Origin: Escherichia phage vB_EcoP_Bp7
Direction: 5' to 3' (one strand)
Sequence record: NC_079181.1
Length of the DNA stretch: 52,615 nt
Below the pieces are notes generated by a model that saw nothing but the letters and a program-made list of their open reading frames with translations, was not told the origin of the DNA and made no database searches. Of the stretch, positions 25,404 through 30,104 are shown one piece after another (position 1 is the stretch's first letter; every line of letters starts with the position of its first letter). A program made the position numbers and the translations under genes.

Positions 25404-25925
25404 ATGTCTTGTATGACTCAAGTTGTTGCTGTAAAGCGAGTGCATCCTAATGCGAAATTACCTGTGTACGCTACTGCTGGCGCTGCTGCTGCTGACGTTT
25501 GCACTATCTCCGATAGCACTGTTGTTATCAATCCCGGCTGCTCTGCTGTTTTCGATACTGGCCTCCAATTCGAGATTCCAGTTGGATACGAACTCAAAGT
25601 ACATAGCCGTTCTGGTCACGGCTTTAAGTCTGGTATTCGCCTGGCAAACTGTACAGGAATTCTGGACTCCGATTATCGTGGTAATCTTATGGTTAAGTTG
25701 CACAACGACTCGGACACAGCCTTTGTGGTTCAACCAGGTGAACGTATTTGTCAGGTGCAAGTTAGTAAAGCTACTCAACACCATTTCGTTGAAGTTGACC
25801 GCTTGAATGCAACTGGTCGTGGTGAAGGTGGCTTTGGCTCAACTGGTCGTGTGGAACTTGGTCAGCATGAAAGACCACATATTCCAGAAGGCTTGACAGT
25901 CCACAATCACAGCATTGCCAAGTAA
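25404..25925 (+). CDS. dut: dUTP diphosphatase (dUTPase)
   Basis: All five trimeric dUTPase motifs: ATAGAAAADV, SRSGHG, GILDSDYRGN, GERICQ, RGEGGFGSTGR. Confidence 0.85.
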   Translation: MSCMTQVVAVKRVHPNAKLPVYATAGAAAADVCTISDSTVVINPGCSAVFDTGLQFEIPVGYELKVHSRSGHGFKSGIRLANCTGILDSDYRGNLMVKLHNDSDTAFVVQPGERICQVQVSKATQHHFVEVDRLNATGRGEGGFGSTGRVELGQHERPHIPEGLTVHNHSIAK

Positions 25926-25964
25926 TATTCGACATTCTCAGTAACCAATTGGAACCTATCTGAA

Positions 25965-26294
25965 ATGAAACTGTCCTCACCTGTCGTAGTAAATAACCGC
26001 AAAGTTAAATTTGCATACCTCAAGTCTAATGTCACCTCCACTGGTGGCGGGACTTATCTCACCCGTGCACTTGCAGTTCGCAACGAAACAGGTGCGGATG
26101 TTATCGTTTTCATGCTTCCTCATGGTGAAAACACAATCAAGAACGTCGAACGTATCAAGCGTGGGCGCGAAGATTTAATGTCGGCTGTTAAGCCGCTGAT
26201 ACTGCCATTCAAGATTGTGGTGGTTGTTGGTTCTACCCAAGCATATCTGGAAGATTTCTATAAAGATATGGCCTGGAGCGATATTAAATATTAA
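25965..26294 (+). CDS. hypothetical protein (109 aa)
   Basis: ORF from the track; followed by a hairpin. Confidence 0.5.
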   Translation: MKLSSPVVVNNRKVKFAYLKSNVTSTGGGTYLTRALAVRNETGADVIVFMLPHGENTIKNVERIKRGREDLMSAVKPLILPFKIVVVVGSTQAYLEDFYKDMAWSDIKY

Positions 26295-26312
26295 GCGACA
26301 CGCGTAATTAGG

Positions 26313-26340
26313 GAGGCTATCTGGCCTCCTATCTTATTCG
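26313..26340 (+). terminator. terminator-like hairpin
   Basis: GGAGGC-TATCTG-GCCTCC followed by a T-rich stretch. Confidence 0.5.
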
Positions 26341-26349
26341 GAGTCGCTT

Positions 26350-26535
26350 ATGCGCACAATACAATGTCCTAACTGCCACTATGAAATTGCAGAAGATGAT
26401 TTCATAACGCAGCAATGTCCTATCTGTGATTCATATATGCCACTAAACCGCCTGTATTTAAAGGCCGATTCTGGTTTAGGCAGCATCATTCGCATCAATC
26501 CCGTGCAAACTCAGCCATTAGTGGATTGTGATTAA
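26350..26535 (+). CDS. zinc-ribbon protein (61 aa)
   Basis: CPNCHY ... CPICD pair of CxxC motifs. Confidence 0.45.
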   Translation: MRTIQCPNCHYEIAEDDFITQQCPICDSYMPLNRLYLKADSGLGSIIRINPVQTQPLVDCD

Positions 26536-28573
26536 AAACAAAGAGAACGAATCAATGTCAAAGACTGATGACCTCGGACCGGAGTTTAATGATACAGTAG
26601 CCTCGTATCTTGCCAAGCACTACGGTGACGTATTAAAAGTCTCAAGAGAAAGATTCTGTATTCTATCTTTGCCATTGCTCCGTCGATATATTTCAGAAAA
26701 TACTGCAATAGTTGACAGCTATGAAGAACAAATTCAAGCAGAGTTAGAAGGCCAGGGTCTTGAAAACGATGCTGTACTGCGTTCCGTTTTCAGAGCACAA
26801 CTTGAGCGTCTTCGCTCTGGCGACAAGAAAGACTCAACTGCCTATGCAGATGAGTTGAAGAAAGGTATTCAAGCAGGTGTTACTGACCGTGTTGCAGGTT
26901 CCACTTTGGAGGAACCAAACTCGGAACATGATAACACCGATGAACTTGTAGACAAGATTCTGCATGACCCACATAACGTGGACCCAACTGTAATCCCTGC
27001 CAAGGTTGCAGAACGTGTTCGCAAAATCTTGATGAAAAGTTTCGAAGCCTTTGGTAAATGGCAGTTCCATATCCAGATGGGATTTCCATTTCAAGCACAA
27101 GACTTTCACGATGTAATATTCAGTGTTGGTCAGAAGGTTGTTGATGGCGAGATTGACCGCTTAATAGTGACCATTCCTCCACGACACTCTAAGACACAGC
27201 TTATGAGTATTGCATTACCCTTGTATTCATTTTGCCACAATGAATCGAGCCATAACATTATCACCTCGTATGCAGAAGACGTTGTTCTTGAATCGAGTGG
27301 TTACATTCGTGCTGTAATGATGGACCCACTGTTCCAACGCATATTTCCGAAGGTGAGAATCGACCCCAACAAACGTTCACTTGAGCGCTGGGGTACAACC
27401 AAAGCTGGAGTTATGCACGCAGTACCTACTGGTGGTAAGCTAACTGGTAAAGGTGCTGGTCTTCTTGTTGCAAAATACTCCGGCTGTTTCGTGGTGGATG
27501 ACGTTATCAAACCGAAAGATGCCTACTCTGACACAGTTCGAGCAGAAATCAACGACCGATTTGATAACACCTTTATGTCCCGTCTTGCCAACGATGGTTG
27601 CATAACTGATTCGTACGGAAACCAAATTAAGTGCGCCCGTACACCAATGGTTATCATCATGCAGCGAGTTCATGACCAGGATTTAGTTGGTTACATACTC
27701 CGTGGTGGCTCTTCTGACAAATACCATTATCTCAATATCCCAGCGATTATTGAGAAAGGCGTTGGAAGTGCCGAATGGTATGATAAGTTAATCAAGAAGC
27801 AGAACTACACTCATGCCATTCCCATTCTGTACAATTTGAACAGGAAGGAAGAGAAGTCTGCATTATGGCCTTCACGTAAGAGCTTAGAATCTCTGGAGGC
27901 AATGAAAGAGTCTAACCCATACACATACAATTCACAGTATGCTGGCGACCCATCTGCACAAGGCCACGGCCTTATCAAAGAAGATTGGTGGCAAGAGTAT
28001 GAGCCAGACGTTTTCGACAGAAGTCGCATAGTCAGAAGTTTTATCACAGCGGATACGGCATCAACTGCCAAATCCTATTCTGATTATTCGGTCCTTAAGC
28101 ATTGGGGCGTGACTAAAGAGCGTGATGTTTATTGTTTAGATATTATGCTCGGTAAGTTTGAAACTCCAGAACTCAAGACTGCTATCATCGACTTCTGGAA
28201 CAAATGCAACAAGTTGGACTTGAAGTGTGTGGGTTGTATTCCTCGTGCATTGTACATGGAAGACAAGTCTGCCGGACAATTCTTGAACCAACAATTTATT
28301 AGAGATGGGAGTGTCCGAGTTTTACCGCTGCCTCGTGATGGCATCAATGGTAATGACAAGGTAACTCGATTCCTTAACGCAATCCCATATTTCTCGCAAA
28401 AGAGAATATTCTTCCCTGCTGGTCATGAACACATTGACCACGTTAGACGTGAAATACTTGGATTCACTTCTTTGGGTAGTGGTACTGGACACGACGATTG
28501 TGTCGATAACGTTTCAGATATGGTTGCAATCGAATTCTCAGGCCCAAGTGCCAACTACTCCGCATGGATGTAA
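26528..28573 (+). CDS. terL: terminase large subunit with ~190-aa N-terminal extension
   Basis: Walker A-like IPPRHSKT, Walker B-like CFVVDD, nuclease-domain motifs FITADTAS and GHDDCVDN; alternative ATG at 26555. Confidence 0.75.
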   Translation: MIKNKENESMSKTDDLGPEFNDTVASYLAKHYGDVLKVSRERFCILSLPLLRRYISENTAIVDSYEEQIQAELEGQGLENDAVLRSVFRAQLERLRSGDKKDSTAYADELKKGIQAGVTDRVAGSTLEEPNSEHDNTDELVDKILHDPHNVDPTVIPAKVAERVRKILMKSFEAFGKWQFHIQMGFPFQAQDFHDVIFSVGQKVVDGEIDRLIVTIPPRHSKTQLMSIALPLYSFCHNESSHNIITSYAEDVVLESSGYIRAVMMDPLFQRIFPKVRIDPNKRSLERWGTTKAGVMHAVPTGGKLTGKGAGLLVAKYSGCFVVDDVIKPKDAYSDTVRAEINDRFDNTFMSRLANDGCITDSYGNQIKCARTPMVIIMQRVHDQDLVGYILRGGSSDKYHYLNIPAIIEKGVGSAEWYDKLIKKQNYTHAIPILYNLNRKEEKSALWPSRKSLESLEAMKESNPYTYNSQYAGDPSAQGHGLIKEDWWQEYEPDVFDRSRIVRSFITADTASTAKSYSDYSVLKHWGVTKERDVYCLDIMLGKFETPELKTAIIDFWNKCNKLDLKCVGCIPRALYMEDKSAGQFLNQQFIRDGSVRVLPLPRDGINGNDKVTRFLNAIPYFSQKRIFFPAGHEHIDHVRREILGFTSLGSGTGHDDCVDNVSDMVAIEFSGPSANYSAWM

Positions 28574-28788
28574 ATATGGCGGTTATCACTCGTTTAGATG
28601 CCCGCTCACGCAAGAACAACTCCTTCCAGATTCAAGATTTGGAAGGAAACATTTTATGTGTGATTGAGGCAGTTTCTACCACAGAGAGCGACTGTGTTAA
28701 GTTAAAGCACGAGTCAAATCTGCGACTCCACACCTCCGACAACATTCAAATTGTTAAGGGTAATGGAACTATTCTAAGGAAGAAATAA
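28564..28788 (+). CDS. hypothetical protein (74 aa)
   Basis: ORF from the track, overlapping the terminase end. Confidence 0.35.
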   Translation: MDVNMAVITRLDARSRKNNSFQIQDLEGNILCVIEAVSTTESDCVKLKHESNLRLHTSDNIQIVKGNGTILRKK

Positions 28789-30104
28789 TGACTTCCAAGA
28801 AGAAAAATAATCTCTCTGTTAAAGTTGCAGATGGGTTAGAAAACCTTGTAACGGGGTTGGGCGGTCAGGCAGATAAGTCCACTTTTAACCAGTGGACTTT
28901 CTCAAACAAGAACGCGAACTATCGCGAACTTATGAACCGCTTCCGTGAGGATTGGGTGGCACAGAAAGTGTGTACCGTTATTCCTCAAGATATGACGCGT
29001 AAGTGGCGGCATATTGATACCGAAGAGGGACGCAAAGCGGATAAGAAACTTCGTATTCGTAAGCTGTTCCGTGAGGCGTATCAATGGGCCAGATTGTATG
29101 GGACTTCATTTGTTCTGCTCGACCTAAAAGGTACGGGCAAACTTGATACACCATTGCGACTGGATAACTTGAAGACTGGGTGTATTAAATCCATGAGAGT
29201 TATTGACCGCTCACGCTTATTCGCCGCAGGGACTATGGTTCTGGACCCTTTGAGTCCTCACTATGGTTTGCCAGAGTACTACACTTTGGCTGGGTATCCC
29301 GGCTATATCCATTACACTCGTTTCCTTCGGTTCGAGGGTACTGAACTGCCACTGTTCGAATTCCAACGTAACATGTGGTATTCCGATTCGGTACTTATTC
29401 CGCTGTTGAAAACGATTGACCAATTCTACACAACTGCCGCTGCTGCTGCCAGCCTTGCTCAAGAAGCCACAATTGATGTGGTAACTGTCGAAGGCTTACA
29501 ATCTTTGCTCACATCACCGGAAGGTGAGGCTGCTGTGATGAAGCGCTTCAAACTCATGAAGCTGGCAAAGAGTATTTATAACGTCTTAATTCTCGACAAT
29601 ACTGAGAAGTATGACACCAAGTCAATTGCACTGTCTGGTGTGAAAGATTTGATTTGGGAATACTTGAAGATAGTTGCTGCCGCAGTTGGTATTCCGGCTA
29701 CACGTTTCCTTTCTGCATCTCCAGACGGTATGAATGCTACGGGCGAATCTGACCTCGTAAACTATATCGACTTGTTGACTGGCTTGCAGACTTCTGTGTT
29801 TGACCCTCGTTTAGATGTGGTAGACAAGATTGTCCAGGCGCACTTTGGCATTGAAGAATATAACTACGAATGGTTAGACATCTTCCCTGAATCCAATGTT
29901 GAGAAAGCGAAGCGAGCTAAAGATTTGGCATTTGCTGTTGACCTGCTGGTTAACAACGGCACCATTACCACGGAAGTTGCAAACGAAGTCATGTTCCATT
30001 CGGGCGTGTTCGGAACTTGTGACCTTGGTAAGCCAAATCCTAATCCTCCTAACATCCAAAAGGGTAACGCAAGTGAAGCAAAACCAAAACCTGGTTCAGC
30101 TTAA
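28788..30104 (+). CDS. putative portal protein (438 aa)
   Basis: Position between terminase and head genes; AAGGA SD. No motif verified. Confidence 0.5.
   Translation: MTSKKKNNLSVKVADGLENLVTGLGGQADKSTFNQWTFSNKNANYRELMNRFREDWVAQKVCTVIPQDMTRKWRHIDTEEGRKADKKLRIRKLFREAYQWARLYGTSFVLLDLKGTGKLDTPLRLDNLKTGCIKSMRVIDRSRLFAAGTMVLDPLSPHYGLPEYYTLAGYPGYIHYTRFLRFEGTELPLFEFQRNMWYSDSVLIPLLKTIDQFYTTAAAAASLAQEATIDVVTVEGLQSLLTSPEGEAAVMKRFKLMKLAKSIYNVLILDNTEKYDTKSIALSGVKDLIWEYLKIVAAAVGIPATRFLSASPDGMNATGESDLVNYIDLLTGLQTSVFDPRLDVVDKIVQAHFGIEEYNYEWLDIFPESNVEKAKRAKDLAFAVDLLVNNGTITTEVANEVMFHSGVFGTCDLGKPNPNPPNIQKGNASEAKPKPGSA

What the first reader, a model, noticed from the sequence alone, without database searches (positions are those of the whole stretch)
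26528..28573. Large terminase with ~190-aa N-terminal extension and no obvious separate small terminase
The Walker A-like motif (IPPRHSKT) lies about 200 residues into the protein, well beyond where it usually sits, and no convincing small-terminase gene is apparent upstream (only a 109-aa protein and a 61-aa zinc ribbon). The extension may supply the DNA-recognition function.
Basis: inference. Interest (0 to 1): 0.35.

Follow-up and report, generated by a model that had tools for sequence, protein, structure and literature searches.

The report
Phage terminase with fused small-subunit-like domain
The DNA-packaging enzyme of this E. coli phage carries at its front end a small helical module that sister phages encode as a separate gene in the slot where the DNA-recognising "small terminase" normally sits, so two partner genes were probably welded into one protein.

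Summary
The window is a phiEcoM-GJ1-like coliphage (Chaseviridae, Carltongylesvirus). The ORF is its large terminase (TerL). The likely start is ATG 26555 (672 aa), not GTG 26528. Walker A (IPPRHSKT) lies at residues 207-214, against 65-68 in the nearest unfused relatives.

The extra part is about 126-140 aa, not 190. It is a confident six-helix domain (aa 9-107) followed by a disordered linker (108-126). Residues 127-206 belong to the ordinary ATPase domain. All 114 full-length homologues keep the extension without gaps.

A profile of the domain finds a large unnamed family of standalone 135-220-aa proteins (at least 295 clusters; hhalign 98.6%, E 9e-16). In all 8 contigs examined, that gene lies upstream of an unfused 530-aa-type TerL that aligns to the window's TerL from residue ~130-155. 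In 7 of the 8 it abuts TerL. On an NJ tree the fused TerLs form one clade and the split forms are their sister.

So this is a gene fusion of a TerS-position partner with TerL. No other TerS was recognisable in the genome. TerS function itself is only inferred: there is no sequence or fold match to any known TerS, only a weak HTH-like resemblance.

The parts
26555..28573 (+). Large terminase (TerL) CDS, 672 aa plus stop. The likely start is ATG 26555. The maximal ORF starts at GTG 26528.
   Evidence: ORF list. RBS-like AAGAGAA upstream. ST32 ORF51 is annotated with this start, and GJ1 gp48 has the matching length. Homologue N-termini align at this Met. phrog_38 at 1e-96. Foldseek matches to solved TerLs.
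26555..26875 (+). N-terminal all-alpha domain (aa 1-107; helices 9-21, 26-30, 39-48, 50-66, 73-88, 95-107). This is the fused module that is homologous to a standalone gene upstream of TerL in sister phages.
   Evidence: AF2 models: pLDDT ~90 in the full model; 91.4 with pTM 0.84 when folded alone. Profile search finds standalone 137-208-aa proteins. hhalign prob 98.6%, E 8.6e-16. Colinear alignment over all six helices.
26579..26698 (+). First three helices (aa 9-48), carrying the conserved motif YGDLLKVSRxR...LPxLRxY. Candidate helix-turn-helix-like DNA-binding element.
26876..26932 (+). Acidic, disordered linker (aa 108-126). It marks the junction of the two ancestral genes.
   Evidence: pLDDT 32-56. 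Lowest conservation in the protein. Unfused TerLs start at positions equivalent to residues ~130-155.
26933..27964 (+). TerL ATPase domain (aa ~127-470), including the N-terminal helices 127-196 that unfused relatives also have.
   Evidence: AF2 secondary structure. BLASTP alignments to split TerLs from residue 130-155 onward. tblastn to T1-like and Jedunavirus TerLs from residue ~155.
27173..27196 (+). Walker A motif IPPRHSKT (aa 207-214), with Ser where Gly is usual.
   Evidence: Sequence. I207, P208, P209, R210, K213, T214 are invariant and H211, S212 nearly invariant. Motif position 199-213 in fused TerLs, 68 in split TerLs, 65 in Jedunavirus.
27485..27502 (+). Candidate Walker B strand CFVVDD (aa 311-316).
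   Evidence: Strand 312-315 in the AF2 model. D315 and D316 invariant. The assignment as Walker B is an inference.
27992..28537 (+). RNase H-like nuclease domain (aa ~480-661).
   Evidence: Pfam PF17289 Terminase_6C, E 1.2e-5. Foldseek hits to the RB49 gp17, HSV pUL15 and HCMV nuclease domains. Invariant D500, D647, D648, D651, D655.
25965..26294 (+). 109-aa ORF of unknown function. Not a conserved partner of TerL.
   Evidence: phrog_18523, unknown function; no Pfam hit. Absent upstream of TerL in L004, L005, VPs20 and AS2.
26350..26535 (+). 61-aa zinc-ribbon ORF. It recurs in some relatives but not all.
   Evidence: CxxC...CxxC motif; only sub-threshold zinc-ribbon Pfam hits. phrog_21735, unknown function. 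Weakly similar 93-aa Zn-ribbon ORF in L005. Absent in L004, VPs20 and AS2.
28576..28788 (+). Small ORF (70 aa from ATG 28576; 74 aa from 28564) between TerL and portal. It is conserved in position in both fused and split lineages. Function unknown.
   Evidence: Alignment A2, 37% identity to L004 and L005. 33% identity to the L011 61-aa ORF. 60-aa ORFs occupy the same slot in VPs20 and AS2, but their sequences were not compared. phrog_12735, unknown function.
28788..30104 (+). Portal protein.
   Evidence: Pfam PF06381 Phage_portal_3, E 4e-75.

Best explanation
The gene is the phage's large terminase. Its first ~126 residues are a compact six-helix domain on a flexible acidic tether. This module is orthologous to a separate 135-220-aa gene that sister phages encode upstream of TerL, usually abutting it, in the slot where small terminases (TerS) sit. 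The Chaseviridae terminase is therefore a natural fusion of a TerS-position partner with TerL.

Proposed mechanism: the tethered domain, through its basic three-helix HTH-like face (K28, R31, R43), recognises or holds the concatemer at the packaging start. It then hands the DNA in cis to the ATPase/nuclease body, which makes the first cut, docks on the portal and packages by the headful. That would give the circularly permuted, terminally redundant genomes reported for this family.

Shown: the fusion itself, its conservation, the domain boundaries and the TerL fold.
Inferred: DNA binding, pac recognition, and the absence of any other TerS.

The confidence of 0.6 is for the whole statement. I put the fusion itself at about 0.9 and a TerS-like function at about 0.55-0.6.
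For: Fusion and homology:
- A profile of aa 1-112 finds standalone 137-208-aa proteins.
- hhalign prob 98.6%, E 8.6e-16, with a colinear alignment over all six helices.
- 8 of 8 contigs examined (L006, L007, L008, L011, L013, L015, L016, L017) have the standalone gene upstream of an unfused TerL. In 7 it is separated by 4-20 nt or overlaps by 4 nt; own RBS-like motifs were read at the three junctions printed. In L013 two small ORFs intervene.
- The split TerLs are 46-50% identical to the window's TerL from residue ~155 and have Walker A at residue 68.
- On an NJ tree the fused TerLs are monophyletic and the split forms are their sister. The outgroups carry separate TerS genes in the same slot.

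Structure:
- Independent domain with pLDDT 91 and pTM 0.84. The linker has pLDDT 32-56.

Conservation:
- 114 homologues keep the extension.

No alternative TerS found.

Headful-type genome ends are reported for the family (PMC8472413; PMC9699118).
Against: - No match of the domain or its standalone relatives to any TerS family in Pfam or PHROGs.
- No match to the sequence of any solved TerS.
- No match to the PF03592 TerS of Jedunavirus or to the Rtp TerS by hhalign (prob <1%).
- The domain is acidic overall (pI 5.0), as are most standalone relatives (pI 4.7-5.6).
- It folds as a compact bundle rather than the long helical hairpin typical of ring-forming TerS.
- A 1:1 fusion would give five copies per motor, not an 8-12-mer ring.
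- The standalone proteins carry a conserved C-terminal tail (SKEDAxEILxxFLxS) that the fusion lacks.
- In E217, a phage with similar structural genes, TerS lies far from TerL (PMC9611059). An unrecognised distal TerS therefore cannot be excluded.
Confidence: 0.6

Rival explanations
1. The fused module is a TerL accessory that does not recognise DNA. It could be a regulator or auto-inhibitor of the ATPase or nuclease, a portal/prohead docking adaptor, or a link to the phage RNA polymerase. The real TerS would then be an unrecognised small protein elsewhere in the genome, or would be dispensable.
For: - No sequence or fold similarity to any known TerS.
- The domain is acidic overall and compact.
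- The standalone gene often follows the T7-like RNA polymerase gene.
- TerS can lie far from TerL, as in E217 (PMC9611059).
- About half the genes in this genome are of unknown function.
- A small ORF is conserved just downstream of TerL.
Against: - The fusion, taken as a Rosetta-stone argument, ties the module functionally to TerL. The only general small partner of phage TerL is TerS.
- The gene sits in the TerS slot, with overlapping or near-abutting stop and start.
- Outgroup phages carry true TerS genes in that slot.
- In L011 it follows DNA ligase, not RNA polymerase, yet still precedes TerL.
- Conserved basic residues cluster on a three-helix HTH-like unit.
- No other TerS candidate was found.
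Confidence: 0.3
2. The extension is simply a long N-terminal part of the ATPase domain, as in T4 gp17 (Walker A near residue 161, from memory), with no separate origin.
For: - Residues 127-206 are part of the ordinary ATPase domain and are shared with unfused TerLs.
- The phrog_38 profile aligns from residue 59 of the 681-aa ORF (residue ~50 of the 672-aa protein).
Against: - Residues 1-107 fold independently behind a disordered linker.
- They exist as a separate gene product in the sister clade.
- The closest unfused TerLs function without them in the same polypeptide.
Confidence: 0.04
3. Artefact: a mis-called start codon or an assembly error joined two genes.
Against: - Moving the start to ATG 26555 removes only 9 residues.
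- There is no Met between residues 1 and 159 and no stop codon.
- 114 independent full-length homologues from isolates and metagenomes have the same architecture.
Confidence: 0.01

Closest known systems
Two-gene terminases of the nearest cultured relatives: Jedunavirus (Klebsiella phage IME346: TerS PF03592 + TerL) and T1-like Rtp (TerS, HNH, TerL)
   Same: The TerL core is homologous (27-33% identity from residue ~155). The portal is of the same family (DUF1073 / PF06381). A small gene sits directly upstream of TerL. The Walker A variant PPRYSKT in IME346 resembles PPRHSKT here.
   Different: In those phages TerS is a separate protein of a recognised family. Here the upstream partner is fused to TerL and shows no detectable relation to those TerS proteins (hhalign prob <1%).
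Uncultured sister clade with the split arrangement (e.g. L011, L016, L017: 154-208-aa protein + 530-aa TerL)
   Same: The small protein is homologous to window TerL aa ~10-110. Its TerL is 46-50% identical to aa ~155-672. The small ORF after TerL is the same, and a T7-like RNA polymerase lies nearby.
   Different: There are two genes with their own start codons. The small protein has an extra conserved C-terminal tail (SKEDAxEILxxFLxS), which in the fusion is replaced by a disordered acidic linker. Walker A is the canonical PPRAGKT.
Pseudomonas phage E217 terminase (TerS decamer, PDB 7UXE, and TerL)
   Same: The myovirus structural module is related: Pfam E217_gp27, E217_gp31_N and Pa193_gp24 hit neighbouring genes in L004 and L005. 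TerS is hard to find by position.
   Different: E217 has a separate ring-forming TerS encoded ~58 kb from TerL (PMC9611059). Nothing in the window matches it by sequence.
Phage lambda terminase gpNu1-gpA
   Same: As I recall, lambda TerS has an N-terminal winged-HTH DNA-binding domain and attaches through its C-terminus to the N-terminus of TerL. The topology proposed here is the same, but covalent.
   Different: Lambda has two polypeptides, is a cos packager, and shows no sequence relationship. This comparison rests on memory and was not tested here.
T4 gp17
   Same: The Walker A motif lies well inside the protein (about residue 161, from memory). The ATPase-plus-RNase H nuclease architecture is the same (Foldseek hit 3ezk).
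   Different: As I recall, the T4 N-terminal residues are an integral ATPase subdomain, and T4 has a separate TerS (gp16). Here the first ~107 residues are an independent domain with a free-standing orthologue.

Membership tests
Large terminase (TerL; ASCE ATPase + RNase H-like nuclease) | Overall two-domain TerL fold | tested here: met
   Foldseek of the AF2 model: PhiV-1 TerL E 2.7e-11, HK97 2.3e-8, then D6E, T4 gp17 and Sf6 gp2. phrog_38 at 1e-96.
Large terminase (TerL; ASCE ATPase + RNase H-like nuclease) | Walker A P-loop with conserved Arg and Lys-Thr | tested here: met
   IPPRHSKT at 207-214; P208, P209, R210, K213 and T214 are invariant in 61 sequences. It deviates by having Ser212 in place of Gly.
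Large terminase (TerL; ASCE ATPase + RNase H-like nuclease) | Walker B acidic residues at the end of a hydrophobic strand | tested here: met
   CFVVDD 311-316 lies on strand 312-315. D315 and D316 are invariant. The assignment is by position, not by superposition.
Large terminase (TerL; ASCE ATPase + RNase H-like nuclease) | C-terminal RNase H-like nuclease domain with conserved acidic residues | tested here: met
   Pfam PF17289, 25.8 bits against a cut-off of 22.6. Invariant D500, D647, D648, D651 and D655. Foldseek hits to terminase nuclease domains.
Small terminase (TerS) | Small protein (~100-200 aa) encoded next to, usually just upstream of, TerL | tested here: met
   Met for the standalone homologues: 135-220 aa, and upstream of TerL in 8 of 8 contigs. 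In the window the module is fused, so it is not a separate protein.
Small terminase (TerS) | N-terminal helix-turn-helix DNA-binding domain | tested here: inconclusive
Small terminase (TerS) | Membership of a described TerS sequence family (e.g. Pfam Terminase_2 PF03592, TerS families in PHROGs) | tested here: not met
   No Pfam or PHROG TerS hit for the domain or for 9 standalone proteins. hhalign against a PF03592 alignment gives prob <1%, and against Rtp TerS 0.5%. Profile searches of PDB sequences found nothing.
Small terminase (TerS) | Protomer fold resembling solved TerS structures (HTH + long oligomerisation helices ± beta-barrel) | tested here: not met
Small terminase (TerS) | Ring oligomer of 8-12 subunits that binds TerL | not testable with these tools
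   No multimer prediction was available. In the window, association with TerL is covalent.
Chaseviridae / Carltongylesvirus (identity of the genome) | Nucleotide identity to type members | tested here: met
   100% identity to Bp10 and ~98% to phiEcoM-GJ1 and ST32 over 25900-28800. 91-98% identity to Bp10 genome-wide.

The most novel reading that the evidence does not exclude
Chaseviridae package DNA with a single-polypeptide terminase holoenzyme. A previously unrecognised TerS family is free-standing in hundreds of uncultured aquatic phage lineages and has been fused to TerL here. DNA recognition would then be done by tethered monomeric domains (five per motor) rather than by a separate 8-12-mer TerS ring.
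Probability: 0.5. Interest if true: 0.65.

Novelty: new variant of a known kind. Interest (0 to 1): 0.5.

Why it matters
Current reviews describe TerS as an essential, separate, ring-forming subunit, and how such rings achieve DNA recognition is unresolved (PMC9611059). A natural covalent fusion of a TerS-like module to TerL matters for several reasons:
- It fixes the stoichiometry at 1:1 and removes the need for a TerL-binding tail.
- It gives a cultivable E. coli phage system (GJ1, ST32, Bp10) in which to ask whether a TerS ring is needed at all.
- It assigns a probable role to a family of at least 295 unnamed protein clusters from environmental phage contigs.
- It explains why no TerS has been annotated in Chaseviridae genomes.
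- It would improve annotation: these TerLs could be labelled as fused, and the standalone family as a candidate TerS.

Tried and rejected
1. GTG 26528 as the start. Rejected in favour of ATG 26555.
2. The 109-aa and zinc-ribbon ORFs as TerS. They hit only PHROGs of unknown function, and neither is conserved upstream of TerL across the family. A weak zinc-ribbon counterpart exists in L005 only.
3. A distal TerS, as in E217.
   - 20 hypothetical ORFs against Pfam gave nothing.
   - 37 concatenated small ORFs against PDB sequences gave nothing.
   - A six-frame hmmsearch for a paralogue of the N-domain gave nothing.
   - The PHROG-based annotation of a close relative lists no TerS in the 50 kb read.
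4. By eye, the N-domain resembled the PF03592 TerS HTH (helix-GN/GD-helix ... NPxI). hhalign did not support this (prob <1%), so I dropped it.
5. phmmer and hmmsearch of TerL, the N-domain and the standalone profile against PDB sequences found no relatives.
6. pac-like repeats in 25900-27200: only short two-copy chance-level repeats.
7. Cultured phages with the split arrangement: tblastn of one standalone protein against 50,697 phage records hit only a fused Chaseviridae TerL.
8. Literature on TerS-TerL fusions or N-terminal extensions: four searches and two reviews returned nothing relevant. One search failed on syntax. The GJ1 genome paper and the E217 terminase paper are not held.
9. Terminal redundancy of the window: none. 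The window is a relative of Bp10, not the same record.
Full report
**Identity of the locus.** The region 25900-28800 is 100% identical to Escherichia phage vB_EcoM_Bp10 and about 98% identical to phiEcoM-GJ1 and ST32 (Chaseviridae, Carltongylesvirus). Genome-wide the window is a 91-98% relative of Bp10, not the same record. The gene order is dUTPase, a 109-aa ORF, a 61-aa zinc-ribbon ORF, the ORF in question, a ~70-aa ORF, then the portal (PF06381).

**The observation.** ORF 26528-28573 is real. It is a large terminase:
- phrog_38 at 1e-96 and Pfam Terminase_6C.
- An AlphaFold2 model (mean pLDDT 83) matches the solved TerLs of PhiV-1, HK97, D6E, T4 and Sf6.

The GTG start overlaps the zinc-ribbon ORF. 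ATG 26555, preceded by AAGAGAA, is the start annotated for ST32 ORF51 and matches the length of GJ1 gp48. It is also where all homologues begin. The protein is therefore 672 aa, and IPPRHSKT is residues 207-214.

114 full-length homologues (48-100% identity, 660-681 aa) keep the N-terminal region without gaps. Mean identity to the window is 31-69% over residues 1-160, against 80-90% in the ATPase core. The region is translated and under selection. It is not an artefact.

**Anatomy.** The model has four parts:
- A six-helix domain, residues 9-107, with pLDDT about 90.
- A disordered acidic linker, residues 108-126, with pLDDT 32-56.
- Helices 127-196, leading into beta-1 and Walker A.
- The ATPase and RNase H-like nuclease domains.

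Residues 1-112 folded alone give pLDDT 91.4 and pTM 0.84, so this is an independent domain. The conserved motif is YGDLLKVSRxR...LPxLRxY, with Y23, G24, L39, P40 and R43 invariant.

**What the extension is.** A profile of residues 1-112 was searched against 1.84 billion representative proteins. Besides TerL fragments, it returned a set of free-standing proteins of 137-208 aa. The homology is solid:
- hhalign probability 98.6%, E 8.6e-16.
- The alignment is colinear across all six helices.

A second search with the standalone profile shows at least 295 clusters. All are unnamed or 'hypothetical', none has a Pfam domain, and many lie on 50-57-kb environmental contigs.

I examined eight contigs that carry such a gene.
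- In seven, the next gene is a TerL that starts at the equivalent of residue ~130-155 of the window's TerL. The gap is 4-20 nt, or the genes overlap by 4 nt.
- RBS-like GGAG/GAGGAG motifs precede the TerL start at the three junctions I printed (L006, L007, L008).
- In the eighth (L013), two small ORFs intervene.
- Sources.

The complete split TerLs are 530 aa, 46-50% identical to the window's core, with Walker A (PPRAGKT) at residue 68.

A neighbour-joining tree of the TerL core puts all 21 sampled fused TerLs in one clade, with the split forms as sister. Jedunavirus and T1-like Rtp fall outside, and both have a bona fide TerS in the same upstream slot. The simplest reading is one fusion of the upstream partner gene to TerL at the base of the fused (Chaseviridae) clade. 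The junction is now the disordered linker.

The true extra piece is therefore about 126-140 residues. Residues 127-206 are ordinary TerL.

Every direct test of membership in a known TerS family failed:
- No Pfam or PHROG TerS hit.
- No relative among PDB sequences.
- No relation to the PF03592 TerS of Jedunavirus or to the Rtp TerS.
- Only a Chaseviridae TerL in BFVD.

The domain is acidic overall (pI 5.0) and compact, unlike the long hairpins of ring-forming TerS. So 'works like a TerS' is an inference with perhaps 55-60% confidence, and 'is a member of a known TerS family' is not supported. If it is a TerS, it is a new family.

**Other TerS candidates.**
- The 109-aa ORF is absent upstream of TerL in the more distant fused relatives L004, L005, VPs20 and AS2. 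There the upstream gene is an RNA polymerase or nrdB.
- The zinc-ribbon ORF is absent in L004, VPs20 and AS2. L005 has a weak 93-aa zinc-ribbon counterpart.
- A PHROG-annotated close relative lists no TerS in the 50 kb of its 53.7-kb record that I read.
- 20 hypothetical ORFs give no TerS Pfam hit.
- 37 concatenated small ORFs match no solved TerS, including E217's.
- The N-domain has no paralogue in the window.

One caveat remains. In phage E217, whose structural genes resemble those here, TerS lies ~58 kb from TerL (PMC9611059). An unrecognisable distal TerS therefore cannot be excluded. The only universally conserved small neighbour is the 60-74-aa ORF between TerL and the portal, of unknown function.

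[quoted passage not shown] The nearest cultured TerLs include those of T1-like phages, which as I recall package by the headful. I therefore propose the following sequence:
1. The tethered N-domain recognises or captures concatemeric DNA at the packaging start.
2. It presents the DNA in cis to the nuclease/ATPase body.
3. That body cuts, docks on the portal and fills the head.

The fusion, the domain boundaries and the TerL fold are shown. DNA binding, pac recognition and the stoichiometry are inferred.

**Novelty.** The phage, the gene and its TerL annotation are known. I found no paper in the held library describing the fused module, its free-standing relatives or a natural TerS-TerL fusion. 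From memory, some annotation guides use plain 'terminase' for single-gene cases, so the idea is not unheard of, but it is not documented for this family. I rate it a new variant of a known kind, of moderate interest.

Noticed in passing
window 28576-28788 (also L004 8013-8201, L005 8017-8202, L011 6129-6314, L016 12056-12244): A 60-74-aa ORF sits between TerL and the portal in both fused and split lineages. It is 33-37% identical to the L004, L005 and L011 ORFs (the L016 match is weak) and has no family assignment. It is the only small neighbour of TerL conserved throughout.
   Followed up: partly
L002 3610-4101 (phiEcoM-GJ1) versus window ~26536-26554; L010 1981-2457 (Rtp): GJ1 carries an HNH endonuclease gene inserted between the zinc-ribbon ORF and TerL. 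It is absent from the window. T1-like Rtp has an HNH gene at the equivalent place, between its TerS and TerL. It could be a homing endonuclease or a terminase-associated HNH; this is not resolved.
   Followed up: no
window 27173-27196: Walker A reads PPRHSKT, with Ser in place of the usual Gly before Lys. This holds in all sampled fused TerLs except the most distant one (P0117, PPRGAKT). The split sisters have the canonical PPRAGKT, and Jedunavirus has PPRYSKT.
   Followed up: partly
window 26311-26330: A terminator-like GC-rich hairpin (GGGAGGCTATCTGGCCTCCT) followed by a T-rich tail lies between the 109-aa ORF and the zinc-ribbon ORF. It may mark the boundary before the packaging and structural operon.
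   Followed up: no
window 26350-26535; L005 5720-6001: A small CxxC...CxxC zinc-ribbon ORF directly upstream of fused TerL recurs in a 62%-identical TerL lineage (93 aa, only 28% identity over 46 aa). It is missing in L004, Vibrio phage VPs20 and Aeromonas phage AS2.
   Followed up: partly
L005 (NCBI GCA_050434605.1, 240-kb contig of Pseudomonas laurylsulfatiphila): A complete Chaseviridae-like packaging and structural module, with a fused TerL, lies on a 240-kb bacterial contig. This may indicate a prophage, a carrier state or a chimeric assembly of a phage type regarded as strictly lytic.
   Followed up: no
window 1-22093 versus MN122072: The window is not the Bp10 record. It matches Bp10 in blocks of 91-98% identity, with several early-region segments lacking a match. 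It starts ~174 nt inside the RNA polymerase gene and has no terminal redundancy.
   Followed up: partly
L019 712-2607 (Vibrio phage VPs20): The 631-aa gene upstream of the fused TerL is annotated 'recombinase'. It occupies the position of the T7-like RNA polymerase in related contigs, so it is probably mis-annotated.
   Followed up: no
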